64,000 bases of DNA. Source: Patescibacteria group bacterium. GTDB lineage: Bacteria > Patescibacteriota > Minisyncoccia > Phycocordibacterales > Phycocordibacteraceae. Of this stretch, positions 18,609 to 52,149 are shown piece by piece. The notes under the pieces are model-generated. The model had not been told where the DNA came from and made no database searches. It was given only the letters and a program-made list of their open reading frames with translations. The stretch's first letter is position 1; each line of letters begins with the position of its first letter. Both the position numbers and the translations under genes were made by a program. Where the stretch lies: positions 25,907 through 89,906 of the forward strand of contig JAZKIU010000001.1 of assembly GCA_040384705.1 (NCBI GenBank), written 5' to 3'.

Positions 18609-19165
18609 GGCAGGAGGGTACCGGTGAGGGTAACGGTGAACGCGATGTCGCGCTCCTTCGCGTACGAGGAAATGGGAAGCTCGGCCTTCGTGACGAACGG
18701 AAGCGTGCCGAGCGTCTGCACGTACTGGCGGAGCGCATCGCGGCTAGCGGCTACGCCCACGAGCGTCATGCGGTTCGTTCCCGGCGTGACGGAAGGCGTG
18801 AACGTGAATCCTTGGATGCTGATGCCTGGGCGCGGCACCAAGAGCACCGCTTTCACGACCCCCGCAGCCGTCGCCTGCGTTCCCAGCACCTGGAGCTGCT
18901 TGGCCTTGGCCTTGAGCGCATCGACGCGACCCTTGAGCTCCTGCTCGCTCGTCGCGCTCGCTGCTATCTGCAACGTCGCGAGCTGCTCCGCACGCGACCC
19001 TGCCTGCTGGACGACGTATATATATGACGGGAGGAGGAGCGCCCCATGCACCACGATGAGTGCCGTGAGCAGGCATATCGCCACGACGATGACGCGGAAG
19101 ACGTAGTCCCGCACGAGTCCGTGCTTCCTGTCACGCGGAAGAAGATTAGTGAGGTCAGTTTGCAT
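18605..19165 (-). CDS. pilN: Type IV pilus assembly protein PilN
   Basis: N-terminal TNLLP motif (the PilN INLLP signature), then a TM helix and a coiled coil. Confidence 0.6.
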   Translation of the reverse strand: MQTDLTNLLPRDRKHGLVRDYVFRVIVVAICLLTALIVVHGALLLPSYIYVVQQAGSRAEQLATLQIAASATSEQELKGRVDALKAKAKQLQVLGTQATAAGVVKAVLLVPRPGISIQGFTFTPSVTPGTNRMTLVGVAASRDALRQYVQTLGTLPFVTKAELPISSYAKERDIAFTVTLTGTLLP

Positions 19166-20247
19166 AGGTACGAAGCGCGAGCCCTATGGCGGTCGCGTAG
19201 GCGAGGGATTCCATGTAGTCGATAGGCGGGAGCCACTCGTCACGGGATGCTAGGTTCGTGAACACGTCACCGAGCTCGACCGGGAGACCGAGGTTCGTCT
19301 CAAGATATTCTGCAAGGCCGCGCACCGTCGCATTGCCGCCCACGAGTATCGCGCGGGTGACCGGGGTATGACCCCCTTCCCCGCCGGCCCTCGCCTGCCA
19401 GTACTGGAGTCGACGCGCTATCTCGTCGCGAATGACGGAAACGGTTGTGAGCATGGCGGCGAGGTATTCCTCGTTACCTTCCCCTCCCATGAGCCCGCGC
19501 TCGGCCTTCACCCGCTTCGCCTCCTCTTCCGTTACATTGAAATACTTCTGGACGGCGAGCGTGAGCGCATGCCCGCCGATATCGAGCGTGGTCGCGAAGC
19601 GCGGGATGCGCTTCTCCACGATGACGAGCTTGGTGGTGGTGCGCCCGAGGTCGATGATGAGGACGGTATCGGTATCCCCCACCGGAAGAAGAGCGCGCGG
19701 GAGCGAGAACGTCTCGCTCTCGACCGCTGATACCCCTACCTTCGCCTCGTCGAGCACCGAGAGCGACTCATCGATGAGGCGGTTCGCGTACGCGATACCC
19801 ACCACATGCGTGAGGTCTCCTTTCGTATCGGTCGGTGCGATATCGAAGAGTGTCTCTGCAGGAGGTAGTGGTACGTACTCATCGATATGCGCCTCGACCG
19901 CAGCTCGCCATTCGCTCTTCTTGGTACCCGGCACGTCCGCTTCGAAGAGATAGCTTCTCGATTCGGAGAGTGCGATGTGTGCGTACCGAATATTATGCTC
20001 CTTCGCGAGCGTACGTATCGCGTTCACGACCGCCGCGCGGTCCGCTATCTCGCCACCGTTCATCGCGCCGAGCTCGAGACGGCCATCGCCGAAGTCGGTG
20101 AGCTCGAGACCATCGAGCTTTTCGCTTATCACCGCGAGCTTTATCCCGCTTGCGGATATGTCGATGCCCGCCGAGAGCGGTGCAAGGTATCTAGGCGCGG
20201 CGAATTCGACGCGCATGAACCGTTTGAGAGAATCGTTGAGCGCCATG
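19155..20247 (-). CDS. pilM: Type IV pilus assembly ATPase-like protein PilM (actin fold)
   Basis: GIDISASGIKLAVIS... actin-like ATPase region. Start moved to the internal ATG (MALNDS) at about 20247, which has a TATAAT -10 located 13 nt upstream. Confidence 0.8.
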
Positions 20248-20283
20248 CTCCGAAAATTATACCGCACGCACTCGCACGCGCGC

Positions 20284-20622
20284 TTAGTGAGTACCTGTTC
20301 CAGGCGGAACCTGCCGGTCAGGCACCATGAATGCGAAGGTCTCGCCTTCCCCTGCGGCGAAGAGCATACCGTTGCTCTCAAGCCCTTTGATGGTACGGGG
20401 CTCGAGGTTCGTCACGAAGGAAAGCTGGCGACCGATGAGCGTCTCGGGCTCGGGAACATACGCATTGATGCCCGACACTATCTGGCGCGGCGCTTCTTCC
20501 CCGAATTCCACCATGAGGCGCAGCAGCTTATCGGTCTCGGGAACGCGCTCTGCCGATATGACGGTGCCGACCTTCACTTCTATCTTCGAGAAGTCATCTA
20601 TGGAAATGCGTGGCTTATCCAT
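20284..20622 (-). CDS. tRNA-binding protein (CsaA/Trbp111-like, MetRS C-terminal-domain fold)
   Basis: N-terminal IDDFSKIEVKVGTVISAE motif typical of the tRNA-binding OB domain. Confidence 0.75.
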   Translation of the reverse strand: MDKPRISIDDFSKIEVKVGTVISAERVPETDKLLRLMVEFGEEAPRQIVSGINAYVPEPETLIGRQLSFVTNLEPRTIKGLESNGMLFAAGEGETFAFMVPDRQVPPGTGTH

Positions 20623-30195: not shown

Positions 30196-30942
30196 CTATC
30201 GGCTCGCGCCCGCAAGAGCGGTGAGCACGCCGGCGGTGATGGCGAGGCTCTTCACGTGCTCGGAACCTTTGACCACGTAGCCGCCGTATTGAACGGTCAG
30301 CATGCGTTCGCAGTGCCACTTGTAGCCGCGGGGCGCTTGGGTGTTGGGCGGCGCCGGCGGGCACTGGTTGCCGTACTCCTTGTAGGGAAAGGGCCACACG
30401 ATGCCGCCGTAGAACCGCGATCCAGAGCTGCCGTACCGGCCGTAGCCGTAGTCGCGTTGGCCGCTGTAGCCGTAGTCGCGACCATCGGGCGTCTGGCACA
30501 TGTTCGACCGCAGATCGAATCCGCAGCCAATATTGCTGGCGTTGCTGCCGTACCCTCCGCGGTTGTAGCCGCGATAGTCGTTCGCGACGCGCACAGGCTC
30601 GGGATACGCCTGCGAAGGCGGTTCCCGATAGCTCGGTGCGTAGCTCGTGGGCGTCGTAGAGGATTCGGAAATCCGGTACTCCTCGAGCGGAGTGATGCCG
30701 CTCGAACGCATCGTGGCTGCCGGAGCAGGCGACGCGTGCTCGATCGGGCTTTCCGTGAACGCGAGCTGGCGCGGGTGCGCGGCGTAGGCGGTAGGCGCGG
30801 CCGGAGCCGCAATCGATTTCGAGCAGTCTTTCGACATGTTGCCCGAGAAGGATTTGAAGCATTTCGCCGACGCGGTGCCGCCGAACGCGATGGTGGCGAT
30901 TATGGCGATGGAAGGAACGCCAAGAAGAGCGCGAAGGCGCAT
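30196..30942 (-). CDS. Secreted low-complexity Gly/Tyr/Arg-rich protein
   Basis: Signal peptide MRLRALLGVPSIAIIATIAFGGTASA, then Pro/Ala/Ser-rich and YG/GYG repeat regions (DYGYSGQRDYGYGRYGSSG). Confidence 0.5.
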   Translation of the reverse strand: MRLRALLGVPSIAIIATIAFGGTASAKCFKSFSGNMSKDCSKSIAAPAAPTAYAAHPRQLAFTESPIEHASPAPAATMRSSGITPLEEYRISESSTTPTSYAPSYREPPSQAYPEPVRVANDYRGYNRGGYGSNASNIGCGFDLRSNMCQTPDGRDYGYSGQRDYGYGRYGSSGSRFYGGIVWPFPYKEYGNQCPPAPPNTQAPRGYKWHCERMLTVQYGGYVVKGSEHVKSLAITAGVLTALAGASR

Positions 30943-31036
30943 GATGAGTCTCCTGATTGCTTGGTTACTGAGGTATAGTATAGCAAAATACACGGTAAAT
31001 GTCAATAGCCTGGCCCTTTCCGCAGGGTGCTACTAT

Positions 31037-32719
31037 ATGGCCTATATGCCGGCTCATTTCGATACCGATGCGGAGGACGCGAAGCTAGCGTCCGTCCGCG
31101 AGAAAGAGGAGGAGGACCTCGCCCAGATACTCTCCGAGAAGCACGGACTTCCCTACACCGACCTCTCGGTCGTGCCCGTGAACATGGACGCGCTCCGCAT
31201 CATCCCGGAGACACAAGCAAAGGAAGCGGAAGTGGTCGCGTTCGATAAGAATGGTAAGCACGTCTCGCTCGCAATTCAGAACCCCGAGAATATCGCGCTC
31301 GCGAAGGTGGTGAGCGACCTCGAAGCCCAGGGCCTCATCATCGCGAAGTTCCTCGCCTCGAGAAAGAGCCTCGAGAAAGCGCTTTCCCGCTACGCCGACC
31401 TTTCCTATGCCCACGAGGATAGGGCGGGCATGTTCGACATCAAGAGCGAGGAGATCCATGAACTCACTAATAAGCTGACTGATATCGCAGCGCTCCGCGA
31501 CGACCTCACCAAGAGCATGGAGGTGGGCCACCGCGCGCAGACCTCGAGGATATTGGAGCAGATGCTCGCGGCAGCGCTCTCTATGCGCGCTTCCGATATC
31601 CACATAGAACCTGAGGAGGCCGGAATACGCCTTCGCCTTCGCATCGACGGTCTGCTGACCGATGTGTTCATGTTCGATTCTCACGGGTACGAACTCCTCG
31701 CGTCCCGCATCAAGCTCCTTTCGGGACTCAAGCTCAATATCAAGGACCGGGCGCAGGACGGACGCTTCTCCATTGTCGTGAACAATGAGATAGAGGTTCG
31801 TACCTCCGTTATCCCAGGCGCATATGGCGAATCGATTGTCATGCGTATCCTCAATCCCAATACCCTTTCCATATCCTTCGAGGGCCTCGGCATCCACGAG
31901 AAGATTCTCGCGAAGCTCGCCGTCGAGCTCAAGCGCCCTAACGGGATGCTCCTTACGACCGGCCCCACGGGCTCGGGTAAGACGACGACGCTGTATGCGT
32001 TCCTTAAGTATCTCCATACGCCTGACATAAAGATAATCACTATCGAGGACCCGGTGGAATACCATATCCCCGGCATCGTGCAGACGCAGGTGAACCATAA
32101 GGACTACACCTTCGCTGCGGGACTCCGCTCCATTCTGCGCCAGGACCCGGACGTCATCATGGTGGGCGAGATACGCGATGCAGAAGTGGCAGAGACCGCT
32201 ATTCAAGCAGCGCTCACCGGTCACTTCGTGTTCTCAACACTCCACACCAATAACGCAGCGGGTACCTTCCCCCGCCTGGTCGATCTTGGTATCGATTCCA
32301 AAACATTCGCATCCGCCATTACCGTCGCGATGGCGCAGCGTCTCGTGCGCACGCTCGACCATGATCGCCGCAAGCAGGTCCCGCTTACCGACGAGCAGAA
32401 GAGGACAGTCGAAAAGATATTCTCGACCGTCGAGGATAAGTCGCTCCTCCCTGCTTCATACGACATGACGTGGGTACCAGATGCCGCAGAGGGAGACGAG
32501 ACGTCGGGATACAAAGGCCGCATGGGCCTCTACGAAGCGATATTCATGGACGATGAGCTGGGTGAGTTCTTGCGCGATAACCCGAGCGAGCATGACATCG
32601 CGAAGCATGTACGCCGCCAGGGCGCGCTCACCATGGCGCAGCAGGGCGTCATCGACGCACTTAATGGACTGACCTCGCTCGATGAGGTGTTCCGCATCGT
32701 CGATATCCCCCGCGATTAG
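31037..32719 (+). CDS. pilB: Type II/IV secretion ATPase (PilB/GspE family)
   Basis: T2SSE N-terminal domain, Walker A GPTGSGKTTT, Asp box, Walker B and the tetracysteine-free His box. An alternative start at the ATG at about 31046 fits a leaderless transcript. Confidence 0.9.
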   Translation: MAYMPAHFDTDAEDAKLASVREKEEEDLAQILSEKHGLPYTDLSVVPVNMDALRIIPETQAKEAEVVAFDKNGKHVSLAIQNPENIALAKVVSDLEAQGLIIAKFLASRKSLEKALSRYADLSYAHEDRAGMFDIKSEEIHELTNKLTDIAALRDDLTKSMEVGHRAQTSRILEQMLAAALSMRASDIHIEPEEAGIRLRLRIDGLLTDVFMFDSHGYELLASRIKLLSGLKLNIKDRAQDGRFSIVVNNEIEVRTSVIPGAYGESIVMRILNPNTLSISFEGLGIHEKILAKLAVELKRPNGMLLTTGPTGSGKTTTLYAFLKYLHTPDIKIITIEDPVEYHIPGIVQTQVNHKDYTFAAGLRSILRQDPDVIMVGEIRDAEVAETAIQAALTGHFVFSTLHTNNAAGTFPRLVDLGIDSKTFASAITVAMAQRLVRTLDHDRRKQVPLTDEQKRTVEKIFSTVEDKSLLPASYDMTWVPDAAEGDETSGYKGRMGLYEAIFMDDELGEFLRDNPSEHDIAKHVRRQGALTMAQQGVIDALNGLTSLDEVFRIVDIPRD

Positions 32720-38292: not shown

Positions 38293-38325
38293 AAGAAACG
38301 AGCGCCTAAGGCGCTCGTTTCTTTT
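38293..38325. terminator. Bidirectional terminator between PBP1A and dnaN
   Basis: AAGAAACGAGCGCC-TAA-GGCGCTCGTTTCTTTT. Confidence 0.6.
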
Positions 38326-39424
38326 ACTGATTCATCGGCATTACCAAATACAAGAATGAGTTGTCACCAGTGCCTCGCATCACGAGCGCACGCCCTATCC
38401 CTGAGGCTGAAAGCGTAATGCTCTCGGAGGGAATTATCGAAAGTGCTGCAGTGAGGTAGCGATGATTGAACGAGAGCTCTATCGAGTCGCCGGACACCGC
38501 TCCTGCGACCTCCTCATTCGATTCCCCTATATCCGCATTCTGTGCGGAGAGCTGTATACGCTTGCTGGCAGGATCAAACGCGAGCCGTACCTTCTGGAAA
38601 GTGTCGGAGAAGACCGCGGTGCGCCTGAGCGCAGTCTCGAAATCCTTCTTGATGAGGTTCGCTTCGGCGAGGAATGACTTCGGTATTATCTGCGCGTAGT
38701 CAGGATAGTTCGCGGCGACGAGGCGCGTGGTGACGAGCCCTCCCTTCCAGCTCATCGCGCATTGGTGCTCGTCGAGAGCTACGGAGATATCCTCGGCCGG
38801 AAGCGTCTGCACGATATCGAGCGCGTTCTTGGCTGGGATAAGCATCGAGAACGGCGCGATGGAGCCGGTGAGCGATATCTTCTTCTCCGCGAGTCGGAAG
38901 GAATCGGTAGCCACCGCCTTCAATTGCCCGCCTTCCGCTGAGATAAGAACACTTGCGAGCTCGGGACGAACGGTCGAGGTCGATGCGAATGCAGCGACGG
39001 ACGAAATGAGGTTCGCGAGCACTGCGCCCGGGAGCGTAAATTCGCTCGTAGGAGCGTCCGGGATAGGCAGTATAGGGAAATCCTCGGAGGCGAGGGTCTT
39101 GAGCGTGCTCTTGGCCGTTCCTGCGGCAATGATGACGGTATCTCCCGCGTGCTTGAGGGATAGTTTCCCATTCCCCGACATGCTCGCGGTTATCTCACGG
39201 AGAACATTTGCCGGAAGCACGACTACTCCCGTCTCTTCGATGGTGCCTTCGACCTTGATATCGATACCGGTCTCCAGGTTCGTTGCACGAAGCTTGATGC
39301 CATCGTCCCCTGCGATGAGCGCGATGCCTGCAAGGACAGGAAGACTGCCTGATCGTCGCTCTGCGAATCGAGCTACGCTCCCCACCGCTTCCTTGAATGC
39401 ATTTTTATCTAGAGAAATAATCAT
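38324..39424 (-). CDS. dnaN: DNA polymerase III beta subunit (sliding clamp)
   Basis: 366 aa three-domain clamp, directly downstream of dnaA. Confidence 0.9.
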   Translation of the reverse strand: MIISLDKNAFKEAVGSVARFAERRSGSLPVLAGIALIAGDDGIKLRATNLETGIDIKVEGTIEETGVVVLPANVLREITASMSGNGKLSLKHAGDTVIIAAGTAKSTLKTLASEDFPILPIPDAPTSEFTLPGAVLANLISSVAAFASTSTVRPELASVLISAEGGQLKAVATDSFRLAEKKISLTGSIAPFSMLIPAKNALDIVQTLPAEDISVALDEHQCAMSWKGGLVTTRLVAANYPDYAQIIPKSFLAEANLIKKDFETALRRTAVFSDTFQKVRLAFDPASKRIQLSAQNADIGESNEEVAGAVSGDSIELSFNHRYLTAALSIIPSESITLSASGIGRALVMRGTGDNSFLYLVMPMNQ

Positions 39425-39665: not shown

Positions 39666-41024
39666 TTATACCAGGAGCGAACGGATGTCCTGGATCTCTT
39701 TCGCGAGCTCCGCGTCCTCGCGTACCTCCCGCTTCACCTTCTCGCACGAGTGGATGACGGTCGTGTGGTCGCGGCCGCCCAGCTTCGAGCCTATCGTCGG
39801 GTACGACACGCTGAAATCCTCCCGGAGGATGTACATGATGACCTGACGAGGACGCACCACTTCCCTTCTGCGGGTCTTTTCATAGATGCTTTCCTCGTCT
39901 ATTCCGTAGAACTCGGCGACTTTCGAGACCACATGCTTCACCGACACTGTTTTCGTAGGGCGGGAGAAGGAACGGAGCGATTGGCGTACTTCGGCGAGGT
40001 CCGGCGGAACGCCCTTCACCTGCGTGTGGCAGACGACGGAGTTGATGACGCCCTCGAGTTCGCGGATGGAACCTGAAATGGAGGCTGCGATGTGCTCGAC
40101 GACCTCGTCCGAGAGCGTAACACCATGAATAGCTGCCTTCCTGCGCACGATGTTCATCCTCGACTCCCTATCCGGTTCGCTGATATCAACCGTCATACCG
40201 CTCTGGAAGCGTCCACGGAGCCTTTCCGCGATGTCCGGGATAGCGGCCGGAGAACGGTCGGACGAGAAGATTATCTGCTTGTTGTTGTCGTGGAGAGAGT
40301 TGAAGAGATGGAAGAGCTCCTCCTGGAACTTATCCTTCTTCGAGAAGAACTGGACGTCGTCCACTATCAGAAGATCGTACTGGCGGTACTTCTCCTTGAA
40401 TCGGTTGGCGGTACCCGCCTGGAGCGAGTCAGTGTATTCGTTACCGAAGCGGTCCGACGTGAGATAGAAGACCTTGCGGGTCGGGTACAGCTTCTTGTAC
40501 TGGTTCCCTATCGCCTGGATGAGGTGGGTCTTTCCTCTTCCAGTGTCCCCATATATGAAGAGTGGGTTATACGTAATACCTGGGCGGCGTATGACCGCTT
40601 CCGCTGCGCTGTGCGCCAGGTCATTGAACGAGCCCACCACGAACGTTTCGAAGGTGTAGCGCGGATTGAGGTTATCGCTCTTGTTGATATAGAACTCATT
40701 GAGCGGTAGTTCCGGTGTCGGAACCGGCTGACGCTTCACTTCTTTAGGCTTCCGTCGGTCATCTTTCACTATCATGTACTCGATATTCCGGTATTCGTAG
40801 GAAACAGAGCGCACTATCTTCAGAAGAAGCGTGTGGAACTTCTTCAGGTACCAGTCGCGGAAGAATTGGCTCGGGACCCCGACGTATACGATGCCGTCCT
40901 CTATCTTTATTATCGAACTATCACGGAACCAGGTGTTGAAATTAGCTTGGGATATGGAAAGTTCGACTTGCGTGAGCATATATTCCCAGAGTTCGCGCGT
41001 ATCGAGACGATTCATAGTGTTCAT
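39666..41024 (-). CDS. dnaA: Chromosomal replication initiator DnaA
   Basis: AAA+ Walker A GDTGRGKTHL, sensor motifs, and the C-terminal DNA-binding signature LGGRDHTTVIHSCEKV. Confidence 0.95.
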   Translation of the reverse strand: MNTMNRLDTRELWEYMLTQVELSISQANFNTWFRDSSIIKIEDGIVYVGVPSQFFRDWYLKKFHTLLLKIVRSVSYEYRNIEYMIVKDDRRKPKEVKRQPVPTPELPLNEFYINKSDNLNPRYTFETFVVGSFNDLAHSAAEAVIRRPGITYNPLFIYGDTGRGKTHLIQAIGNQYKKLYPTRKVFYLTSDRFGNEYTDSLQAGTANRFKEKYRQYDLLIVDDVQFFSKKDKFQEELFHLFNSLHDNNKQIIFSSDRSPAAIPDIAERLRGRFQSGMTVDISEPDRESRMNIVRRKAAIHGVTLSDEVVEHIAASISGSIRELEGVINSVVCHTQVKGVPPDLAEVRQSLRSFSRPTKTVSVKHVVSKVAEFYGIDEESIYEKTRRREVVRPRQVIMYILREDFSVSYPTIGSKLGGRDHTTVIHSCEKVKREVREDAELAKEIQDIRSLLV

Positions 41025-43577: not shown

Positions 43578-44540
43578 TTATTTCTTGTCGTACGAACAGG
43601 AGCAGTACTGCTTCTGCCCGTTCGCCGTCTTCGCGGTGCTGCACGAGACCCCATCCCCTTTCTGGTAATTGCAGCACTGGATAGCGGTATTATCGGTCCA
43701 CGCTATCTCCGTGCCGTGCGGGATGGATTTGCATGCGGTATTCGGCTCGCCAGTCGCCGGTATCTTGGACTGAGGCGGGTTCTGCGGGGAAACAGGCGCA
43801 GTCTTCAGTCCGCAGCAGATGCCGCCGTTCAGGTTCGTCGCGCAGCAGCTATCGGTGATCCGCAGTTCCCCCTTCCCTCCGTCGCACGCATTACCTTGCG
43901 GCTTCACCACAGTCTTGTCCTTATATTCTTCGCAGCTCGCGGCCGGAGTAGTGCCCTCTCTCTTCATGCAAATTGTTACGACCGTCCCGGTGCACGTTCC
44001 GCCGTCGGGTATTGGAGCTATGGCGCCACCATCGGCGGGTTTGCAGTTGGCTATAGGCAGGCCGCCCTGCTGCAAGCACTGCGTGCTGGCCGTACCGTAC
44101 GACGAAGTGTCGTTCGCCCATAGGATATCTTCCGCGATACTATCACCGGCCGATAGATCGGAAAGTCCTCGTATCTCGAGCTTCAGTATGTCCGGATTGA
44201 TTATGGAGAAGACGATGGTGGGCGCGAGGACGAGCAGTAGGCCGATGATAGTATCGCGGATGAGATTCTTCGCGTCCCCTATCTTCTCGTGGCTACCGGC
44301 CGCCGTCATCCAGGTCACGCCTGCCCGCATTATCTGCAGGACGCCAATGGCGGCTGCGAGCCCGATACATATCATGTATACGCTGTTGAGGAAGTTCGGG
44401 AGGTCGGCCGCGTTGCCTGCGAACGTTACGTTCTGTATGTTCGTGAGCGGCACAAAGCCCACTTCCGTATCCTGCGCAAAGGCAAGAACAGGAGCCAAGA
44501 CAATCATGGATATTACGAATGTAAGGAAAGTCTTTTTCAT
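43578..44540 (-). CDS. VirB2/TrbC-like pilin module fused to a roughly 200-aa Cys-rich extracellular domain
   Basis: Signal peptide MKKTFLTFVISMIVLAPVLAFA, then two hydrophobic helices separated by a short charged loop (…MICIGLAAAIGVLQIMRAG…AGSHEKIGDAKN…IIGLLLVLAPTIVFSII), then about 22 cysteines (CC, CxC patterns). Confidence 0.5.
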   Translation of the reverse strand: MKKTFLTFVISMIVLAPVLAFAQDTEVGFVPLTNIQNVTFAGNAADLPNFLNSVYMICIGLAAAIGVLQIMRAGVTWMTAAGSHEKIGDAKNLIRDTIIGLLLVLAPTIVFSIINPDILKLEIRGLSDLSAGDSIAEDILWANDTSSYGTASTQCLQQGGLPIANCKPADGGAIAPIPDGGTCTGTVVTICMKREGTTPAASCEEYKDKTVVKPQGNACDGGKGELRITDSCCATNLNGGICCGLKTAPVSPQNPPQSKIPATGEPNTACKSIPHGTEIAWTDNTAIQCCNYQKGDGVSCSTAKTANGQKQYCSCSYDKK

Positions 44541-45564: not shown

Positions 45565-46002
45565 TTATGCAGCTTCACGATGTTCGCCCGCAGCTGGTGC
45601 ATTATCATTCGCCGGCGTACCTCTTCTCATTCTTCGCTTCCCTACCTGCTGCGTAAGGAATGGCGCATTCTTCTTCTCTTTCTCCCCCACCTCCTTATTG
45701 TGCTGATAGATGAGCATCGCTACCCCAGTGGTAGTAGCAGGAAGCGCATTAATGAACGGAACGAGCTCGACGACGATAGCTGAGAGCGAGGTGAAGAGCT
45801 TCCCACCACCCTTGTTCGTGATGTATTGGACGCCGAGTAGCTGGAACCAGATGAAGAACACTATCCACACGAGCGGCGTAAGGAACCACGAGAAAACGGC
45901 ACCGAGCACCGTAAGCGTCAGGAGGAATTGGATAAGGTCTACGAGTATCGCTACAGCGAGAAGCGAGAAGATAGCGACCGGGCCTATCTTCTCCTGCTTC
46001 AT
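45565..46002 (-). CDS. Small polytopic membrane protein (three TM helices)
   Basis: Hydrophobic, with a Trp/Phe-rich middle; directly downstream of the VirB4 ATPase ORF with a 4-nt overlap. Confidence 0.45.
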   Translation of the reverse strand: MKQEKIGPVAIFSLLAVAILVDLIQFLLTLTVLGAVFSWFLTPLVWIVFFIWFQLLGVQYITNKGGGKLFTSLSAIVVELVPFINALPATTTGVAMLIYQHNKEVGEKEKKNAPFLTQQVGKRRMRRGTPANDNAPAAGEHREAA

Positions 46003-47834
46003 ACGCGCAAGGGCGGAGCCCCTCCCTCTGCCCCTTGCCGTTCCTTCTCACGCTTTATCGCAAGAAGCTGCGAAGGGTCCGATGTGATTATCTGGTCCTC
46101 GGTGTATGACGCAACAACCTTGATGGCGACGTGCTTGAGGCCCGCAAAGAAGAGGCCCTCCCCAACCCCGCTCTCAAGAAGAAGGTACTTCTCCTCATCG
46201 GTGAGGTTGAACGTCTCCTGGAGCACGTCTATCGTCGTTGGTGACTGCTTAAGGAGGAGTTGGAGGGATGAGTTCGTGAGAATAGGGCGGCCATACGGCG
46301 AGCGGAGGAAGTCCTCCACATCCTGGGTGATGGTAGCGAGCCCGAGATAGTACTTGCGTCCGCGCTTGGCGAGGCTGTAGAGGAAGGAGGCGGTGTCCTC
46401 CGACTTCATCATCCACCACGCTTCATCGATGACGAGTAGGCGCTTCTTGAGCTCGTGACGCACCGCGTTCCAGATGAAGTGCGTGATGATGTACATCGCG
46501 ACCGGCTTGAGCTCGTCCTCCATGTCCCGAACCGAGAAGACGATGAACTGCTTATTGATATCGACGTTCGTCGGTCGGTTTATGAATCCGGCCCAGGTGC
46601 CGTGCGTGTATTTGGAAAGCCGGGTAACGAGCGACTCGGATCCCTCCATGCCGGAAAGCACGTTCTCGAAGTCGGAAAGGAGCGGCGGCTCCTGGCCCGT
46701 GAAGTCGTTATCGCCCGTGATGTCCTTCAGCGCGTATGTCTCCGTGATGGCTCGATCGATGATAGCGTCCTCTTCCGGGGTAAGGCCGCCCAGCATGATG
46801 CGGAACAGGCCGACGAGATTGATGATGTTGGACCGGAGGATATCGGAAGGCTCCTCGTCCTCTTTGACCGGCGGCAGGTCGAACGGGTTGATGTGATGCT
46901 CGGAGGAGAGCGAGATGTTGAAGGTACGTCCGCCGGTCGCTTCCGCAAGGTATTCGTACTCGCGTTCCGGGTCAATGACAATGACTTCCGTCTCGAACAT
47001 GAGGGAGCGGAGTATCTCAAGCTTCACCGCGTACGACTTGCCCGAACCTGACTTCGCGAACACGACGGAGTTGTAGTTCTCGAGCGAGAAGCGATCGAAG
47101 AGTATCAAGGATGCATTGTGGCGGTTGATGCCGTACAGGATGCCGCGATCGCTCGTGAGGTCGAAGGAAACGAATGGGAATATCGAGGAAAGCGGCGAAG
47201 AATTGAGCTTGCTGTTCACCTGGAGCTCGTCGAGCGCGAGCGGAAGCGTCGAGCGGTATCCCTGCTCCTGCTGAAAGAGAGCGGGCTTCGTGTATACGAG
47301 CTTGGAGTCGAGGATGCCGCGCACCTCCCCTTCTATCTTGTCGAGCTCCTCCTTGCTGTCGCCGTAGAGCGTGAGATACAGGCCGACATCGAAGAGGCGC
47401 TCCTGCGCCTGCTGCAGCTGGTCGCGCAGGTTCTCGAGGTCCTGGTACGCCGTGTCGAGCATCGGGTCACGCACGAGCCCCTTCGATTCCCTCTCGTTTA
47501 TCTGGCTCTCCACTTCAGCGACCTTCCTCTGGAAGCCACGAAGAGCACCTGCGGTCTCGAGCGGGTGTATGAATATGGCAGCATCGAGCACACGGTCGAG
47601 GTTCACGATTGGCATGAACCAGCCGTCCGAGAGGAAGCGGGGGTATGAAATGGTGTAGAACGAGCGCGAGAACTTCTCCCCGAGTTCGATTTCCCGTGCG
47701 CTCACCTTGAGTGCAGCTGGGGCGATAGCATCAGCAAGATCGAGCTTACCTTCCCGATAGATATCGGCAGGAAGAACGGGCGTCACGCTAGGCGTTTCTT
47801 CTTTCTTGCGGTTGAGGAAATCGAGTAGCGCCAT
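45999..47834 (-). CDS. virB4: VirB4/TrbE/ConE-family type IV secretion ATPase (central and ATPase domains)
   Basis: Walker A FAKSGSGKS, Walker B LLVIDEAWW, and the YPRFLSDGW central-domain motif. Confidence 0.85.
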   Translation of the reverse strand: MALLDFLNRKKEETPSVTPVLPADIYREGKLDLADAIAPAALKVSAREIELGEKFSRSFYTISYPRFLSDGWFMPIVNLDRVLDAAIFIHPLETAGALRGFQRKVAEVESQINERESKGLVRDPMLDTAYQDLENLRDQLQQAQERLFDVGLYLTLYGDSKEELDKIEGEVRGILDSKLVYTKPALFQQEQGYRSTLPLALDELQVNSKLNSSPLSSIFPFVSFDLTSDRGILYGINRHNASLILFDRFSLENYNSVVFAKSGSGKSYAVKLEILRSLMFETEVIVIDPEREYEYLAEATGGRTFNISLSSEHHINPFDLPPVKEDEEPSDILRSNIINLVGLFRIMLGGLTPEEDAIIDRAITETYALKDITGDNDFTGQEPPLLSDFENVLSGMEGSESLVTRLSKYTHGTWAGFINRPTNVDINKQFIVFSVRDMEDELKPVAMYIITHFIWNAVRHELKKRLLVIDEAWWMMKSEDTASFLYSLAKRGRKYYLGLATITQDVEDFLRSPYGRPILTNSSLQLLLKQSPTTIDVLQETFNLTDEEKYLLLESGVGEGLFFAGLKHVAIKVVASYTEDQIITSDPSQLLAIKREKERQGAEGGAPPLRV

Positions 47835-47836
47835 GA

Positions 47837-48469
47837 TTATTGTTCTAGTCGGATAGGGTTCTCCGTGACGCCAGGATTGAACGAGCGGTACAGGAGTTCG
47901 ATGAGCTCCTCGGTACCGAGCGGTACCGCGCGTATGCCGGCGTTCTGGAGGCCGGACGCGACGAGTCCCATCCGCTGCTCGAGCTGGACGCGGTGCTCAT
48001 CGAAATTATTCGGGCCCGCCTGCTCGGTCGGAGCTGTCGGCTTCTTAAGGAACGGAATGCTGCTCGTTACGGCGCTCGCGATTGCGGGGGTGTATGGCAC
48101 GACGACATAGAAGAGCTTCGTCATGATGTCGCTCGAATCCATGAAGTTCCGTATGAACGCGAGATACTCGCGGAGCTGCAGGCGCATCAGCTCGCTCGTC
48201 TGCGTATCCATCTTGCTCTCGAGCAATGCGAGGTAGGGTCGGATATCCATCTTGCGGGAATGCACGAGTATCTCGACCGAGAAATCGAGCGTGTTCAGGA
48301 AGTTCTGGAACCCTCCGATTATGCCGCGCTGCTCGTCCTCGGATTTGAGGAAGAAGTTCATGGAGGAGCACATGAGGACGCCTCGGTACCCGTCCTCCTT
48401 GAGGATGATGATGCCGTTGCGTACTTCTTCGACCGGCACGAAGGATTGGGTTGCTTTTGGTGTCGCCAT
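47837..48469 (-). CDS. VirB4 N-terminal domain encoded as a separate ORF (split VirB4)
   Basis: VPVEEVRNGIIILKEDGYRGVLMCSSMNFFLKSEDEQRGII matches the N-terminal region of Gram-positive VirB4 homologues. TAA stop lies 2 nt before the ATG of the ATPase ORF, in a different frame. Confidence 0.6.
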   Translation of the reverse strand: MATPKATQSFVPVEEVRNGIIILKEDGYRGVLMCSSMNFFLKSEDEQRGIIGGFQNFLNTLDFSVEILVHSRKMDIRPYLALLESKMDTQTSELMRLQLREYLAFIRNFMDSSDIMTKLFYVVVPYTPAIASAVTSSIPFLKKPTAPTEQAGPNNFDEHRVQLEQRMGLVASGLQNAGIRAVPLGTEELIELLYRSFNPGVTENPIRLEQ

Positions 48470-48471
48470 GA

Positions 48472-48885
48472 TTAGGGGTTCGTGGGCGGCTGATTGTCCT
48501 TGATATCCAGCGACCAGGCGAGTTCCTGGAGCCGTCCGCGCGAAAGGCCGAGCTTCTGGGGAGCCTGCACCTCGACCGGGGCGACGTATGCCGAGCTGGA
48601 AGTTTTCGCCTCCTTCTTCCAGAGGTAGAGGCGCCCGCCTACGTAGTACTTGAAGCCGGCCTCGAGCATCTCCACGAAGGTCTTGTTGTTCACTTTGTAG
48701 AACGCGAGCGCAGCTGCGAGCGCGACGACGGGTATGGAGAGGATGATACCGAACAGGAGCGGTAGATACAGGAGGAATATTGCGGCAAGTCCCCCGCCGC
48801 CGGCGAGATAGATGAATTGCTTCAGCGTCAGCGGGCCGATTATCTTGTCCTCTACTTCGATGAACTGCGGCACTTGGTATTCCAT
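48472..48885 (-). CDS. PrgI-family / VirB3-like small membrane protein
   Basis: MEYQVPQFIEVEDKIIGPLTLKQFIYL followed by two TM helices, positioned immediately upstream of VirB4. Confidence 0.55.
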   Translation of the reverse strand: MEYQVPQFIEVEDKIIGPLTLKQFIYLAGGGGLAAIFLLYLPLLFGIILSIPVVALAAALAFYKVNNKTFVEMLEAGFKYYVGGRLYLWKKEAKTSSSAYVAPVEVQAPQKLGLSRGRLQELAWSLDIKDNQPPTNP

Positions 48886-48946: not shown

Positions 48947-49861
48947 TTACTGCATCGGCTCGCGATATGGGTCTACGCCGTACTGCTTCAGATGGGTGCG
49001 CATAGCAGCTTCAGGGCTTTCGCGCTCAGGAGCTGGTTGGGTAGTTGGAGGAACGGATGCAGCGACTTGCGGGCGCGGTGCTTCGGCTGCTACCCATGCG
49101 GGAGGTGCGGGATGCGCAACGCGTATAGGATCGACACCGTCCTTGAGTGCTTTCATATCGCGCGCCATTGTGTGGATGACCCGGGCATTCGTGTCGAGCG
49201 GCTGGGCTTCTGGCATGGGAATCGAGACAGCAGGAGTTGGCGCCGGGTTTGGAGGAGGAGGAACGGGACGCTCGGGCATCTGGCCCGGCAATATCTGCGG
49301 AGGTGGGACTTGCTTGGGTGCCACTGGTTTCTCTATCGCTTTCTCGATGTACGAAGGCGGAGCGGAGACCGCAGGCAATGGGCTATATACAGGAATCATA
49401 GGAGAAGGGTGGGGTGCGGCAGGTGCAGGTGCCACATATATAGGTATCTCTTTAGCAACCGGAGCAGCAATAGTCGCAGGCACCAGGTCTTTAGATCCGG
49501 TGTCGCTTCCCCGCCGCTCTTCTTCGCGTAAACGCATGAAAACATCCTTATTCACATCTTCCACGAGCCCATTCACTTTCTCGGGAGAGATGCCTGCTTC
49601 ACGCAGCGAAACCACAAATTCCGGTGGCGAAGAAATACCTAGAAGCATGAATATAAATGCCCGCTCAAATTCCCCCGCTTGATCGGCATGAAGACCATAC
49701 TTCTTTGATAGTTCCAACACGACGCGAGCGCGCTCGCTACCAGTTATGAATTCTTGCACAGGCTTAGGTAGCTCGGCCACCAGTGTGGCAATAGCGTCTT
49801 CGACGGACATTTTCTCGGAATTAGGCGTTACGTTGGTCGGTTCCATATCTGAAATCATCAA
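48947..49861 (-). CDS. Proline-rich protein of the T4SS-like operon
   Basis: An alpha-helical N-terminal domain, then about 150 aa that are Pro/Ala/Val-rich (PPPNPAPTPAVSIPMP...). Confidence 0.45.
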   Translation of the reverse strand: MMISDMEPTNVTPNSEKMSVEDAIATLVAELPKPVQEFITGSERARVVLELSKKYGLHADQAGEFERAFIFMLLGISSPPEFVVSLREAGISPEKVNGLVEDVNKDVFMRLREEERRGSDTGSKDLVPATIAAPVAKEIPIYVAPAPAAPHPSPMIPVYSPLPAVSAPPSYIEKAIEKPVAPKQVPPPQILPGQMPERPVPPPPNPAPTPAVSIPMPEAQPLDTNARVIHTMARDMKALKDGVDPIRVAHPAPPAWVAAEAPRPQVAASVPPTTQPAPERESPEAAMRTHLKQYGVDPYREPMQ

Positions 49862-52149
49862 TGCGCTCCACCTCCACCTCCACCTCCACCTCCACTAGCC
49901 GGTGCCCCACCCCCACCTATTTTGCTGCCGAGTCCGGCTATAGCATCTATCACCCTCTGATTTTCTGATTTATCAATACTCTTCAGTATCTCTGCAGCAG
50001 CCTCATGGTTTGCGTGGGCGTCGGCCGTCGGCCAAGGCAGGCCTCTATGCTCGATATTCTTAGCAAACTCGCGCTTCGGCACATTTGAATCCACGTCTTT
50101 CATCGCTCGATCGATATCTTCGATTTCACGATCGATTCGGCGCGCAGTTGCCTTCTGGTCCTTCTCAAACAACGCCTTACGAGCCTTCAAGCTCTTTGCC
50201 AACGCTTCATTTGTGGGCCCACCAGCACTTTCAGCTGCTGCAATTTCAACCTGGAGCGTGTCAGTTTGTTCCTCCGTCTGGCGCTGCAGGATTTTCTTCT
50301 CGGCTTCCTTGCTGTTCTTCTGATTCTTCAGCTTATTCTCTGCGGATTTTTCCTCATCTGTTTGCTTAAGCTTGCCGGCATAGTCAGTGCGCTCCTTTTT
50401 CGCTTTCTCCTCTATCCCATGCCAGCCATGAGATGCGTCTTTACCAACCTTCCCAAAATCAAGATGTGCACCCTTCCCAGCAGCGGTAGCAACGCCTCGC
50501 ATGCTGTAGCTCGCTGCCGCACCTTTGCTAAAGGTGTTGTAGACGCCTCGTCCAAATTGACTGTTCCTCGCCCACTTGGTCTTTCCGATACGCTCAGCAA
50601 CTACGCCCGACGCCGCACCAACCGTGCGTCGTCCCAGGAAGCCATACGTCCCAAGCACCGCTCCGCCCGCCTTCTGCGTCGCGAAGTCAGCGCCCACTGC
50701 TCCCATACGCTTGGCGACCACTAGTGAGGCAACCATGAACGCGATGACTATCGCGAACATGACGAAGACCTGGGGAGCATTCATTCCGCCATTGATGAGC
50801 GCGAGCGCGAACGAATCCCCGTTATCTGTACCGACGAGCCCCTCGACTATCTTCAGGCTGATGAGGACGAGAAGGAGGTAGACGGGAGCGAAGAACGCAT
50901 TCGATAGAAGCTGCTTCCACCAGCTGCGTGCGAATTCTTGAAGCGGCGGGATGGCCATTCCCGCGAATCCAATAGGCGAAAGGACCATGAGAAGGCAGAG
51001 CATCACCGCACGCATGATGAGCATTATCGCTGCGGCAAGCAGGACGACGGCAGTGATGGTGACGAAGATCGTGAGACCTACGTATACCGGAGCGTGCTTC
51101 TCCGGACGATTGCTGAAGTCCCCGATACCCTGCGGGCTCCATATGCTGGATATGCCGGCCATATGGATGACTTGCCCCGCGATGCCGTTATTCGCGCACG
51201 CCTCTTTTCCTTGCTCGTCATTGCCCGAGCAGCCGGAGAGGCCAGCCTGTGTCGTGAACACGGAAGCGAAACTGTTGGATACGTCGATGATGATCTGCGT
51301 GGCGAAGAGGCTGAAGTTGAGAAGCACTGCGAAGATAATGAGTCGTGCGATGGTCTTACCCCCTGCGAATTCATTATGGCTATCGATTATCTTCATCAGC
51401 CCCATGAATATGAATCCGAAGAGCAGAAGAATGTTCGCAATATCACGGAGTATTCCCCAGGCGATGAGCATCCCCGGAGAGGTTCCAAAGTAACTACCGA
51501 ACTCGAAGACTGTCTTTATCACTACCCAATTAAAGAGACCGCCCACCACCCAGAGCATGAAGCTGGCGATGATGAGGAGCACACTCGCGATGGAGCCGAT
51601 AATCGTTCCCATAAGGCCCGCGAGGCCCTCTGCGACGCATGAGCCGATATCCCCAAAACTTTTGAGGCTACAATTGCTTGTGGAATCAGGGTTCGCGTCC
51701 ACATTCGCGTTATTTTGCTCCCCAGTCTGCTTAGCATCGACCGCACTTGCATCTCTAGAGTCATCGGTCCCAATGAGCTTCCCATCCGCGTCGTAGTTCT
51801 TCACTTCCTGCCCCGCCAGTGCTCCGGGGGTTATCGTCGTGTACGAGCCGTCCTTAAACGTAACCTTGCACGTGCCAGCTGAGCCAAGCGCCCCCCCACA
51901 AGCTGTGGTGCTTCCGTCAGCATTCGCACGCGTGCAGCCGGTATTCCCCGTGGTGGCGCCGCACGGGCTTTCATCAACCGATGCGTGGCTAATGGATGTA
52001 ACGGATGTCTGAGCGAGAGCTGCTGCTGGAATAAAAAGACACGCTGAAGCTGCCGCCAGAAGCGCTCCACAAATGATTAGGGCCTTAAGATGGTCAGTTC
52101 GTGCACCTTGATCCTTCGGAAGTGTGCGCATGATTAGTTCGACGGACAA
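49858..52149 (-). CDS. VirB6/TrbL-like polytopic membrane protein with a long coiled-coil, Gly-rich C-terminus
   Basis: Signal peptide, a Cys-containing roughly 150-aa ectodomain, at least 6 TM helices, a KEAEKK coiled coil, and a terminal GGGGAPASGGGGGGGGGAH tail. Confidence 0.65.
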   Translation of the reverse strand: MSVELIMRTLPKDQGARTDHLKALIICGALLAAASACLFIPAAALAQTSVTSISHASVDESPCGATTGNTGCTRANADGSTTACGGALGSAGTCKVTFKDGSYTTITPGALAGQEVKNYDADGKLIGTDDSRDASAVDAKQTGEQNNANVDANPDSTSNCSLKSFGDIGSCVAEGLAGLMGTIIGSIASVLLIIASFMLWVVGGLFNWVVIKTVFEFGSYFGTSPGMLIAWGILRDIANILLLFGFIFMGLMKIIDSHNEFAGGKTIARLIIFAVLLNFSLFATQIIIDVSNSFASVFTTQAGLSGCSGNDEQGKEACANNGIAGQVIHMAGISSIWSPQGIGDFSNRPEKHAPVYVGLTIFVTITAVVLLAAAIMLIMRAVMLCLLMVLSPIGFAGMAIPPLQEFARSWWKQLLSNAFFAPVYLLLVLISLKIVEGLVGTDNGDSFALALINGGMNAPQVFVMFAIVIAFMVASLVVAKRMGAVGADFATQKAGGAVLGTYGFLGRRTVGAASGVVAERIGKTKWARNSQFGRGVYNTFSKGAAASYSMRGVATAAGKGAHLDFGKVGKDASHGWHGIEEKAKKERTDYAGKLKQTDEEKSAENKLKNQKNSKEAEKKILQRQTEEQTDTLQVEIAAAESAGGPTNEALAKSLKARKALFEKDQKATARRIDREIEDIDRAMKDVDSNVPKREFAKNIEHRGLPWPTADAHANHEAAAEILKSIDKSENQRVIDAIAGLGSKIGGGGAPASGGGGGGGGGAH

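What the first reader, a model, noticed from the sequence alone, without database searches (positions are those of the whole stretch)
47830..48469. VirB4 encoded as two ORFs separated by 2 nt
The 210-aa ORF has the characteristic VirB4 N-terminal domain (GIIILKEDGYRGVLMCSSMNFFLKSEDEQ). It ends with TAA at 47839-47837. The 611-aa ORF, carrying the central and ATPase domains, starts with ATG at 47834 in another reading frame. Together they total about 820 aa, the size of an intact VirB4/ConE. This is either a natural split gene (translational coupling), a programmed frameshift, or a sequencing or true frameshift mutation.
Basis: seen in the sequence. Interest (0 to 1): 0.6.

Follow-up and report, generated by a model that had tools for sequence, protein, structure and literature searches.

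The report
Conserved two-gene VirB4 in Patescibacteria
The secretion-system ATPase VirB4 really is encoded as two adjacent genes here, but this is the normal, already described arrangement (a TrsD-like protein plus VirB4) in this group of ultra-small bacteria, not an error or a frameshift.

Summary
On the minus strand a 210-aa ORF (48469..47837, stop TAA 47839-47837) is followed by 2 nt (TC) and then the ATG (47834) of a 611-aa ORF in another frame.

The 210-aa protein matches the extreme N-terminus of fused VirB4 family models. The 611-aa protein matches the rest, including the ATPase domain.

The split is not an error, a pseudogene or a programmed frameshift:
- All 80 orthologous loci from different species keep two ORFs.
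- Spacers range from 1 to 486 nt, and all three relative frames occur (32/27/21).
- Three loci carry a whole extra gene between the halves.
- Of the 150 best cluster representatives of the N-terminal protein, 149 are stand-alone.

The same break point occurs in pSK41 TrsD/TrsE and in Firmicutes megaplasmids. Quinonero-Coronel et al. 2025 already describe TrsD (a remote homologue of the VirB4 N-terminus) next to virB4 across Patescibacteria, near dnaA, as in this window.

One sub-lineage (Colwellbacteria-like) has a fused ~790-aa VirB4.

Verdict: real, ordinary and already known. Interest is low.

The parts
47837..48469 (-). 210-aa TrsD-like protein. It corresponds to the detached first part (about 175-200 residues) of the VirB4 N-terminal domain. 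No transmembrane segment is evident.
   Evidence: ORF. NCBIfam matches to the N-termini of fused VirB4 models. There are 2665 homologues, and the best 120 are all 208-227 aa and carry precomputed PF26593 (TraC-like). It is 40% identical to residues 8-213 of the fused 797-aa VirB4 P0321. The ten best Foldseek PDB hits for the AF2 model are all R388 TrwK/VirB4.
47835..47836 (-). 2-nt spacer (TC) between the TAA stop of the 210-aa ORF and the ATG of the ATPase ORF.
   Evidence: The same TAA-TC-ATG junction joins prgI to the 210-aa gene, and TAA-CT-ATG joins uvrD to ksgA.
45999..47834 (-). 611-aa VirB4 ATPase. It contains the second half of the classical N-terminal domain plus the C-terminal motor domain. 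Walker A is AKSGSGKS and Walker B is LLVIDEAW.
   Evidence: Pfam P-loop_TraG, AAA_10 and DUF87. NCBIfam CD1110 VirB4 at E 1.7e-112. PDB 4ag5 (VirB4 C-terminal domain) at E 1e-44, and TrwK residues 300-741 align with query residues 127-559. The best 120 homologues are all 603-613 aa at 86-95% identity.
48472..48885 (-). 137-aa PrgI (VirB3-like) membrane protein, immediately upstream.
   Evidence: Pfam PrgI at E 2e-10, above the cut-off.
49858..52149 (-). 763-aa polytopic VirB6/TrbL-like protein.
   Evidence: Pfam TrbL at E 4.6e-6, 27.0 bits against a cut-off of 25.9.
48947..49861 (-). 304-aa Pro-rich protein of unknown family, in the same operon.
   Evidence: ORF. No Pfam hit. Its start overlaps the end of the VirB6-like gene by 4 nt.
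45565..46002 (-). 145-aa membrane protein. Its ATG overlaps the ATPase stop by 4 nt.
   Evidence: Only a faint NCBIfam hit to pLS20_p028.
43578..44540 (-). 320-aa secreted protein with a weak T4SS_pilin (VirB2-like) N-terminal match and a Cys-rich C-terminus.
   Evidence: Pfam T4SS_pilin at E 2.8e-4, below the cut-off.
39666..41024 (-). dnaA. It shows that the cluster is chromosomal and close to the origin of replication.
   Evidence: Pfam Bac_DnaA at E 2.7e-63. dnaN lies at 38324-39424.

Best explanation
This is a genuine two-subunit VirB4. The window comes from a Patescibacteria (Paceibacteria-type) chromosome and carries the phylum's origin-proximal type IV secretion cluster: VirB6-like, a 304-aa protein, PrgI/VirB3-like, a 210-aa TrsD-like protein, the VirB4 ATPase, and then membrane and pilin-like proteins. 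The 210-aa protein is the detached first subdomain of the VirB4 N-terminal domain. The 611-aa protein carries the rest of that domain and the ATPase motor. They are separate genes, translated separately from one operon transcript. The TAA-TC-ATG junction is the ordinary junction style of this genome, and it probably allows termination-reinitiation coupling, which would keep the two products roughly equimolar (inferred). By analogy with the R388 structure, the 210-aa protein is most likely the module that binds PrgI/VirB3 and docks the ATPase hexamer on the membrane channel. In R388, VirB3 wraps around the VirB4 N-terminal domain, and that domain mediates VirB4-VirB4 and VirB8-tail contacts. 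This docking role is inferred, not shown. The arrangement is homologous to TrsD+TrsE of staphylococcal pSK41/pGO1. It is the majority state in Patescibacteria.
For: Shown:
- The ORFs and the junction.
- The two proteins match fused VirB4 models collinearly: the N-terminal protein at positions 2-104 and the ATPase at 183-733 of NF045971.
- All 120 best homologues of each half keep the same length.
- 149 of the 150 best 50%-cluster representatives of the N-terminal protein are stand-alone proteins of 115-443 aa, down to 34% identity.
- All 80 GTDB-species loci are split, each with its own stop codon (TAA 53, TAG 18, TGA 9). Spacers are 1-486 nt, 60 of 80 are 6 nt or less, none overlap, and the relative frames are 32/27/21.
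- A 23S_rRNA_IVP gene is inserted between the halves in L046, L048 and L061.
- Both halves are under purifying selection. The N-terminal protein evolves faster: median 55% identity against 78% for the ATPase in the same loci.
- The gene order VirB3-like, N-terminal protein, ATPase recurs in Geobacillus and C. perfringens megaplasmids and in pSK41 (TrsC-TrsD-TrsE).
- The ATPase aligns with TrsE from residue 3 to residue 2 (MALLDFLNRKKEE against MIMAFLKKKKQEQ), and the junctions fall in the same alignment column.
- The ten best Foldseek hits are all TrwK/VirB4.

Literature:
- TrsD is a remote homologue of the VirB4 N-terminus. There are 2272 homologues in Patescibacteria, 1664 of them next to virB4. 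It is essential in Ca. S. epibionticum ML1, and the T4SS lies near dnaA and ksgA (PMC12102498).
- In R388, VirB3 wraps around the VirB4 N-terminal domain (PMC9259494).
Against: - The NCBIfam TrsD/TraD model (NF041427) does not reach E 0.01 on the window protein.
- The profile comparison with pSK41 TrsD is weak (hhalign probability 29%, E 5.8e-4).
- The AF2 model has only moderate confidence (pLDDT 64.8). The Foldseek E-values are about 1e-2 and TM scores are 0.38-0.44.
- No sequence-level hit of the N-terminal protein to any solved VirB4.
- Translational coupling, physical association of the two proteins and PrgI binding are all untested here.
Confidence: 0.9

Rival explanations
1. A sequencing or assembly indel, or a recent frameshift mutation, broke a single virB4 gene into a pseudogene.
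For: Only the bare pattern: two ORFs in different frames, 2 nt apart, summing to 821 aa.
Against: An independent assembly has the identical junction (L001). All 80 species are split at the same protein position but with different spacers. Thousands of stand-alone homologues of both halves exist at conserved lengths. A true artefact looks different: P0409 (600 aa) arises from a run of N inside a fused gene.
Confidence: 0.01
2. A programmed ribosomal frameshift or stop-codon bypass at the junction produces a full-length fused VirB4 alongside, or instead of, the two separate proteins.
For: The short 2-nt spacer and the frame difference. Fused VirB4 proteins exist in a related lineage.
Against: The relative frame is not conserved (32/27/21 across the three phases). 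The spacer ranges from 1 to 486 nt. There is no conserved slippery sequence at the junction. All three stop codons are used. A complete gene or long hairpins lie between the halves in several species. The ATPase always begins with its own ATG followed by a conserved N-terminal peptide.
Confidence: 0.02
3. The 210-aa protein is an unrelated accessory protein that merely sits upstream of a naturally short VirB4. Its resemblance to the VirB4 N-terminus is spurious.
For: The matches to VirB4 models are far below the whole-protein cut-offs (33.8 and 18.8 bits). My Pfam copy gave no hit. There is no PDB sequence hit.
Against: It is 40% identical (E 1e-46) to the N-terminal 213 residues of fused 775-807-aa VirB4 proteins of Colwellbacteria-like genomes. 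One such protein matches TIGR00929 VirB4_CagE from model position 18 to 725. The top 10 of 350,542 PDB chains by Foldseek are all TrwK/VirB4. The precomputed Pfam TraC-like domain PF26593 is found both on the stand-alone and on the fused proteins.
Confidence: 0.04

Closest known systems
Patescibacteria T4SS cluster with TrsD + VirB4 (Quinonero-Coronel et al., Microb Genom 2025, PMC12102498; essentiality from Wang et al., Cell 2023, as cited there)
   Same: Same phylum. Same gene set: VirB6, PrgI/VirB3, TrsD-like, VirB4 and a VirB2-like pilin. Same chromosomal position near dnaA, dnaN and ksgA. No relaxase or coupling protein was seen among the neighbouring genes examined.
   Different: Nothing substantive. 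The paper calls the small protein TrsD, with remote homology to the VirB4 N-terminus, rather than describing it as a split VirB4. It does not describe junction spacing or the fused Colwellbacteria-type variant, as far as my text searches show.
TrsD + TrsE of Staphylococcus aureus pSK41/pGO1 (MPF_FATA, pGO1 subclass)
   Same: The gene order is TrsC (VirB3-like), TrsD (227 aa), TrsE (672 aa, DUF87). The ATPases align from their first residues (24% identity, E 2e-39) and the break point falls in the same alignment column.
   Different: This system is plasmid-borne and conjugative, with a relaxase and a VirD4-like protein. The N-terminal proteins are barely alignable (hhalign probability 29%). The NCBIfam TrsD model does not reach the window protein.
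PrgI + N-terminal protein + DUF87 ATPase clusters on Firmicutes megaplasmids (Geobacillus pGspE55-1, C. perfringens pJFP838A)
   Same: Same three-gene order and same split. The N-terminal proteins are 27-29% identical to the window protein (E 1e-18 to 1e-22) and the ATPases about 30%.
   Different: Their N-terminal protein is longer (312-318 aa). It has an N-terminal transmembrane helix and a C-terminal extension of about 70 aa.
Fused VirB4 (R388 TrwK; CD1110-family VirB4; Colwellbacteria-type 775-807-aa VirB4)
   Same: The domain content is collinear when the two window proteins are concatenated. The window ATPase is 57% identical to the Colwellbacteria-type protein over its residues 226-796.
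   Different: These are a single polypeptide. The Colwellbacteria-type protein lacks the last ~10 residues of the stand-alone N-terminal protein and the first 28 residues of the stand-alone ATPase.

Membership tests
VirB4 ATPase (NCBIfam NF045971 CD1110 family; TIGR00929) | Whole-protein score above the curated cut-off of a VirB4 model | tested here: met
   The 611-aa ORF scores 377.1 bits against a cut-off of 325 for NF045971. It stays below the cut-offs of TIGR00929 and TraC-F-type, as expected for a distant monoderm clade.
VirB4 ATPase (NCBIfam NF045971 CD1110 family; TIGR00929) | Walker A and Walker B motifs in a RecA-like C-terminal domain homologous to solved VirB4 C-terminal domains | tested here: met
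   AKSGSGKS and LLVIDEAW are visible in the translation. PDB 4ag5 matches at E 1e-44 and TrwK at E 2.6e-9.
VirB4 ATPase (NCBIfam NF045971 CD1110 family; TIGR00929) | Complete N-terminal domain on the same polypeptide | tested here: not met
   The 611-aa protein covers model positions 183-733 only. Positions 2-104 are matched by the separate 210-aa ORF.
TrsD/TraD family (NCBIfam NF041427; TrsD profile of the MPF_FATA pGO1 subclass) | Significant match to the family model | tested here: not met
   NF041427 is not among the hits at E <= 0.01 for the window protein. It does hit pSK41 TrsD (1e-67) and the N-terminal domain of fused P0321 (8.5e-8). hhalign of the window family against pSK41 TrsD gives probability 29% and E 5.8e-4. 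The CONJScan TrsD profile used in PMC12102498 was not available here.
TrsD/TraD family (NCBIfam NF041427; TrsD profile of the MPF_FATA pGO1 subclass) | Small protein encoded between a VirB3-like gene and virB4, with the VirB4 partner starting at the same position | tested here: met
   The order PrgI, 210 aa, ATPase in the window matches TrsC-TrsD-TrsE in pSK41. The junctions fall in the same alignment column.
Pfam PF26593 (TraC-like domain) | Match to the Pfam model | tested here: inconclusive
   A precomputed PF26593 hit is recorded for the identical protein P0001 and for all 120 listed homologues, and is named TraC-like. My own hmmscan against the local Pfam-A copy returned no family at E <= 0.01. 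The local copy may lack this model.
Patescibacteria-clade T4SS (PMC12102498) | virB4 together with TrsD, PrgI/VirB3, VirB6 and a VirB2-like gene, chromosomal and near dnaA/ksgA, without a relaxase nearby | tested here: met
   The identical proteins are annotated by NCBI as Patescibacteria group bacterium. No relaxase or VirD4 was found among the large ORFs scanned, but that scan was not exhaustive.
Programmed -1/+1 frameshift gene | Conserved frame relationship and conserved slippery or stimulatory sequence at the junction across orthologues | tested here: not met
   The relative frames are 32/27/21, spacers are 1-486 nt, and junction sequences are not conserved.

The most novel reading that the evidence does not exclude
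The split may be the ancestral state of the whole Patescibacteria plus TrsD/TrsE-type lineage. In that case the Colwellbacteria-type 775-807-aa VirB4 would be a secondary re-fusion that deleted about 35 junction residues. Covalent linkage of the first N-terminal subdomain would then be dispensable. The free, faster-evolving 210-aa subunit could act as an exchangeable or regulated adaptor that controls when the highly conserved ATPase docks on PrgI/VirB6. This would be relevant to a T4SS that is essential for the epibiotic lifestyle. My data show that both states exist, share synteny and share a break point with Firmicutes systems. They do not resolve polarity or function.
Probability: 0.3. Interest if true: 0.35.

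Novelty: already known. Interest (0 to 1): 0.13.

Why it matters
For annotation, the 210-aa "hypothetical protein" next to virB4 in Patescibacteria should not be flagged as a frameshifted pseudogene or merged with the ATPase. It is a conserved partner subunit, and is reported essential in one cultivated species. For biology, it adds little beyond the 2025 survey. It confirms that a T4SS motor can work with its first N-terminal subdomain as a separate polypeptide. It also shows that both split and fused versions coexist within one phylum, which could be used to study how VirB4 docks on VirB3.

Tried and rejected
- The search for related loci with the diverse alignment of the N-terminal protein failed because no stretch was conserved enough. 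I used the ATPase alignment instead. This also avoids selecting for split loci.
- Sequence searches of the PDB with the 210-aa protein or its profile found nothing relevant. Only the fold search pointed to VirB4.
- The local Pfam scan gave no family for the 210-aa protein.
- The main text of Guglielmini et al. 2014 does not contain the word TrsD. The statement about TrsD and VirB4 N-terminal homology therefore rests on PMC12102498, which cites that paper.
- P0409 (600 aa, 88% identical to fused P0321) looked like a split form inside the fused clade. It is an artefact of a run of N in the contig and was rejected.
- I looked for a Shine-Dalgarno motif upstream of the ATPase ATG. No GGAGG-like motif lies within about 15 nt. 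Coupling by reinitiation is therefore inferred, not demonstrated.
- I did not resolve whether split or fused is ancestral. The sequences available give only two Patescibacteria clades plus outgroups of both kinds.
Full report
**1. Observation**

The sequence is as described. On the minus strand, a 210-aa ORF runs 48469..47837 and ends with TAA at 47839-47837. Two bases (TC) follow. The ATG at 47834 then opens a 611-aa ORF that ends at 45999, in a different frame.

The junction is not special within this operon:
- The upstream prgI gene joins the 210-aa ORF through the same TAA-TC-ATG.
- uvrD joins ksgA through TAA-CT-ATG.
- Several other genes in the cluster overlap by 4 nt.

**2. What the two ORFs are**

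The 611-aa protein:
- It carries the P-loop_TraG, AAA_10 and DUF87 domains.
- It scores above the curated cut-off of the CD1110-type VirB4 model: 377 bits, E 1.7e-112, model positions 183-733 of 752.
- It matches the crystal structure of a VirB4 C-terminal domain (4ag5, E 1e-44).
- Its residues 127-559 align with residues 300-741 of R388 TrwK/VirB4.
- Walker A (AKSGSGKS) and Walker B (LLVIDEAW) are present.

The 210-aa protein:
- It matches the N-terminal ends of fused VirB4 models, weakly but collinearly: positions 2-104 of 752 of CD1110 and 102-233 of 894 of VirB4_plasma.
- It is 40% identical (E 1e-46) to residues 8-213 of a fused 797-aa VirB4, P0321. P0321 itself matches TIGR00929 VirB4_CagE from model position 18 to 725.
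- An AlphaFold2 model built on 54 homologues is only moderately confident (pLDDT 64.8, pTM 0.56).
- Even so, its ten best Foldseek matches among 350,542 PDB chains are all TrwK/VirB4 chains of the R388 T4SS (probability up to 0.99, E about 1e-2, TM 0.38-0.44).

The R388 paper defines the VirB4 N-terminal domain as residues 15-400 (PMC9259494). Extrapolating the ATPase alignment puts the break near TrwK residue 175. The break therefore lies inside the classical N-terminal domain: the first subdomain is detached and the second stays with the motor.

**3. Error, frameshift or real split?**

The identical proteins are in NCBI as a Patescibacteria MAG with a 640-kb contig.

Homologue lengths:
- All 120 best homologues of the small protein are 208-227 aa, down to 67% identity.
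- All 120 best homologues of the ATPase are 603-613 aa, at 86-95% identity.
- An exhaustive HMMER search of 1.84 billion cluster representatives found 2280 clusters. Of the best 150 (34-82% identity), 149 are stand-alone proteins of 115-443 aa and one is fused.

I then fetched 80 orthologous loci from different GTDB species. I used the ATPase as bait, so the sample is not biased toward split genes. The results:
- All 80 loci have a separate N-terminal ORF with its own stop codon (TAA 53, TAG 18, TGA 9).
- The ATPase ORF in every locus starts at its own ATG, at the same protein position.
- The spacer is 1 nt in 17 loci, 2 nt in 10, 3 nt in 13, 4 nt in 9, 5 nt in 7 and 6 nt in 4. It reaches 486 nt in others. 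No pair of ORFs overlaps.
- The three relative frames occur 32, 27 and 21 times.

In L046, L048 and L061, a complete 23S_rRNA_IVP-family gene flanked by inverted repeats of about 30 nt sits between the two halves.

These facts exclude a sequencing error, a pseudogene, a programmed frameshift and a read-through. L001, an independent assembly, has exactly the window's junction.

**4. Wider relatives**

The same three-gene order (VirB3-like, N-terminal protein, ATPase) occurs in:
- Firmicutes megaplasmids: Geobacillus pGspE55-1 and C. perfringens pJFP838A. There the N-terminal protein also has a transmembrane helix.
- The classical staphylococcal conjugative plasmid pSK41, as TrsC-TrsD-TrsE.

The window ATPase aligns with TrsE from its very first residues (MALLDFLNRKKEE against MIMAFLKKKKQEQ; 24% identity, E 2e-39). 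In a joint alignment the two break points fall in the same column.

The direct link between the window's small protein and TrsD is weak:
- hhalign gives probability 29% and E 5.8e-4, collinear over 168 columns.
- The NCBIfam TrsD model does not reach the window protein.

I therefore call the protein TrsD-like rather than a tested member of NF041427.

**5. Literature**

Quinonero-Coronel et al. 2025 (PMC12102498) surveyed 3035 Patescibacteria genomes. They report that:
- A TrsD homologue is listed as essential in Ca. S. epibionticum ML1.
- The cluster also contains PrgI/VirB3, VirB6 and VirB2-like pilins, usually lacks a relaxase, and often lies near dnaA, dnaN and ksgA.

The window reproduces this picture exactly. 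On the minus strand it carries uvrD, ksgA, two unknown genes, the VirB6-like gene, a 304-aa gene, prgI, the 210-aa gene, virB4, a 145-aa gene, a 333-aa gene, the pilin-like gene and a 446-aa gene, with dnaA and dnaN downstream. The finding is therefore already known.

**6. Mechanism**

Shown: two conserved genes under purifying selection. The small subunit evolves about twice as fast as the ATPase, with median identity 55% against 78% in the same 80 loci.

Inferred:
- Translation is probably coupled. Spacers are 6 nt or less in 60 of 80 loci, and no Shine-Dalgarno-like motif lies within about 15 nt of the window's ATG.
- The 210-aa protein probably forms a non-covalent complex with the ATPase and with PrgI. 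In R388, VirB3 wraps around the VirB4 N-terminal domain, and that domain makes the VirB4 dimer and VirB8-tail contacts (PMC9259494).

The function of the whole system in Patescibacteria is not known. The survey authors (PMC12102498) infer from the lack of relaxases that it serves roles other than conjugation.

**7. A small addition**

A sizeable sub-lineage annotated Candidatus Colwellbacteria has a fused VirB4:
- It comprises more than 115 clusters at 90% identity.
- The proteins are 775-807 aa and carry PF26593 plus the ATPase domains.
- The syntenic, dnaA-proximal context is the same.
- The fused protein lacks the last ~10 residues of the stand-alone N-terminal protein and the first 28 residues of the stand-alone ATPase.

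One apparent split member of this clade, P0409, is an artefact of an N-run in its contig. I could not resolve whether the fusion is secondary or ancestral.

**8. Verdict**

The arrangement is ordinary for the phylum and already published. Interest is low.

Noticed in passing
L048:3512-4001, L046:3556-4001, L061:2972-3420 (relatives; not present in the window): A ~123-aa 23S_rRNA_IVP / four-helix-bundle gene (PF05635, E 2e-38), flanked by inverted repeats of about 30 nt, is inserted exactly between the TrsD-like gene and virB4 in three different species. In L002, L053, L060 and L074 the spacer is 83-102 nt. In L002 and L060 it was checked and contains an inverted-repeat hairpin without an ORF, possibly an empty or remnant form of the same small element; L053 and L074 were not checked.
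   Followed up: partly
Relatives: P0321, P0391-P0509; locus L084:3453-5852: A Colwellbacteria-like sub-lineage of Patescibacteria encodes a fused 775-807-aa VirB4 (TraC-like N-terminal domain plus ATPase) in the same PrgI / dnaA-proximal context. Both split and fused architectures therefore exist within the phylum. Which state is ancestral is unresolved.
   Followed up: partly
window 48472-48885 and 47837-48469; protein P0321: The actinobacterial SCO6880 family model (477 positions) gives weak, collinear hits to PrgI (positions 12-80), to the C-terminal part of the 210-aa protein (241-291) and to residues 170-396 of fused P0321 (248-475). This hints that SCO6880-type proteins are VirB3-like plus VirB4 N-terminal-domain fusions, with the ATPase split off at a different point. 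All the hits are far below the model cut-off.
   Followed up: no
N-termini of the ATPases: window 47834-47796; L081:6818; L082:6950; L083:26584: All split-type VirB4 ATPases examined begin with a short basic motif containing F and a K-rich run (MALLDFLNRKKEE, MFKFKKEKRE, MKFGFKKKNQKN, MIMAFLKKKKQEQ). The fused Colwellbacteria-type protein lacks it. It could be a docking or membrane-proximal peptide specific to the split form.
   Followed up: no
window 49862-49900 (3' end of the VirB6-like gene): A GGTGGA hexanucleotide run encodes a poly-Gly tail (GGGGGGGGAH) at the C-terminus of the 763-aa VirB6/TrbL-like protein. It lies immediately before the overlapping start of the Pro-rich 304-aa ORF.
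   Followed up: no
window 43578-44540: A 320-aa secreted protein combines a weak T4SS_pilin (VirB2-like) N-terminal match, below the Pfam cut-off, with a long Cys-rich C-terminal region. It is much larger than ordinary VirB2 pilins.
   Followed up: no
window 19155-20381 and 30836-32719: Type IV pilus genes lie in the same 64-kb origin-proximal region as the T4SS cluster: PilM, and a PilB/T2SSE-type ATPase with an MshEN domain. They sit among housekeeping genes (polA, mur ligases, PBP1, dnaN, dnaA).
   Followed up: no
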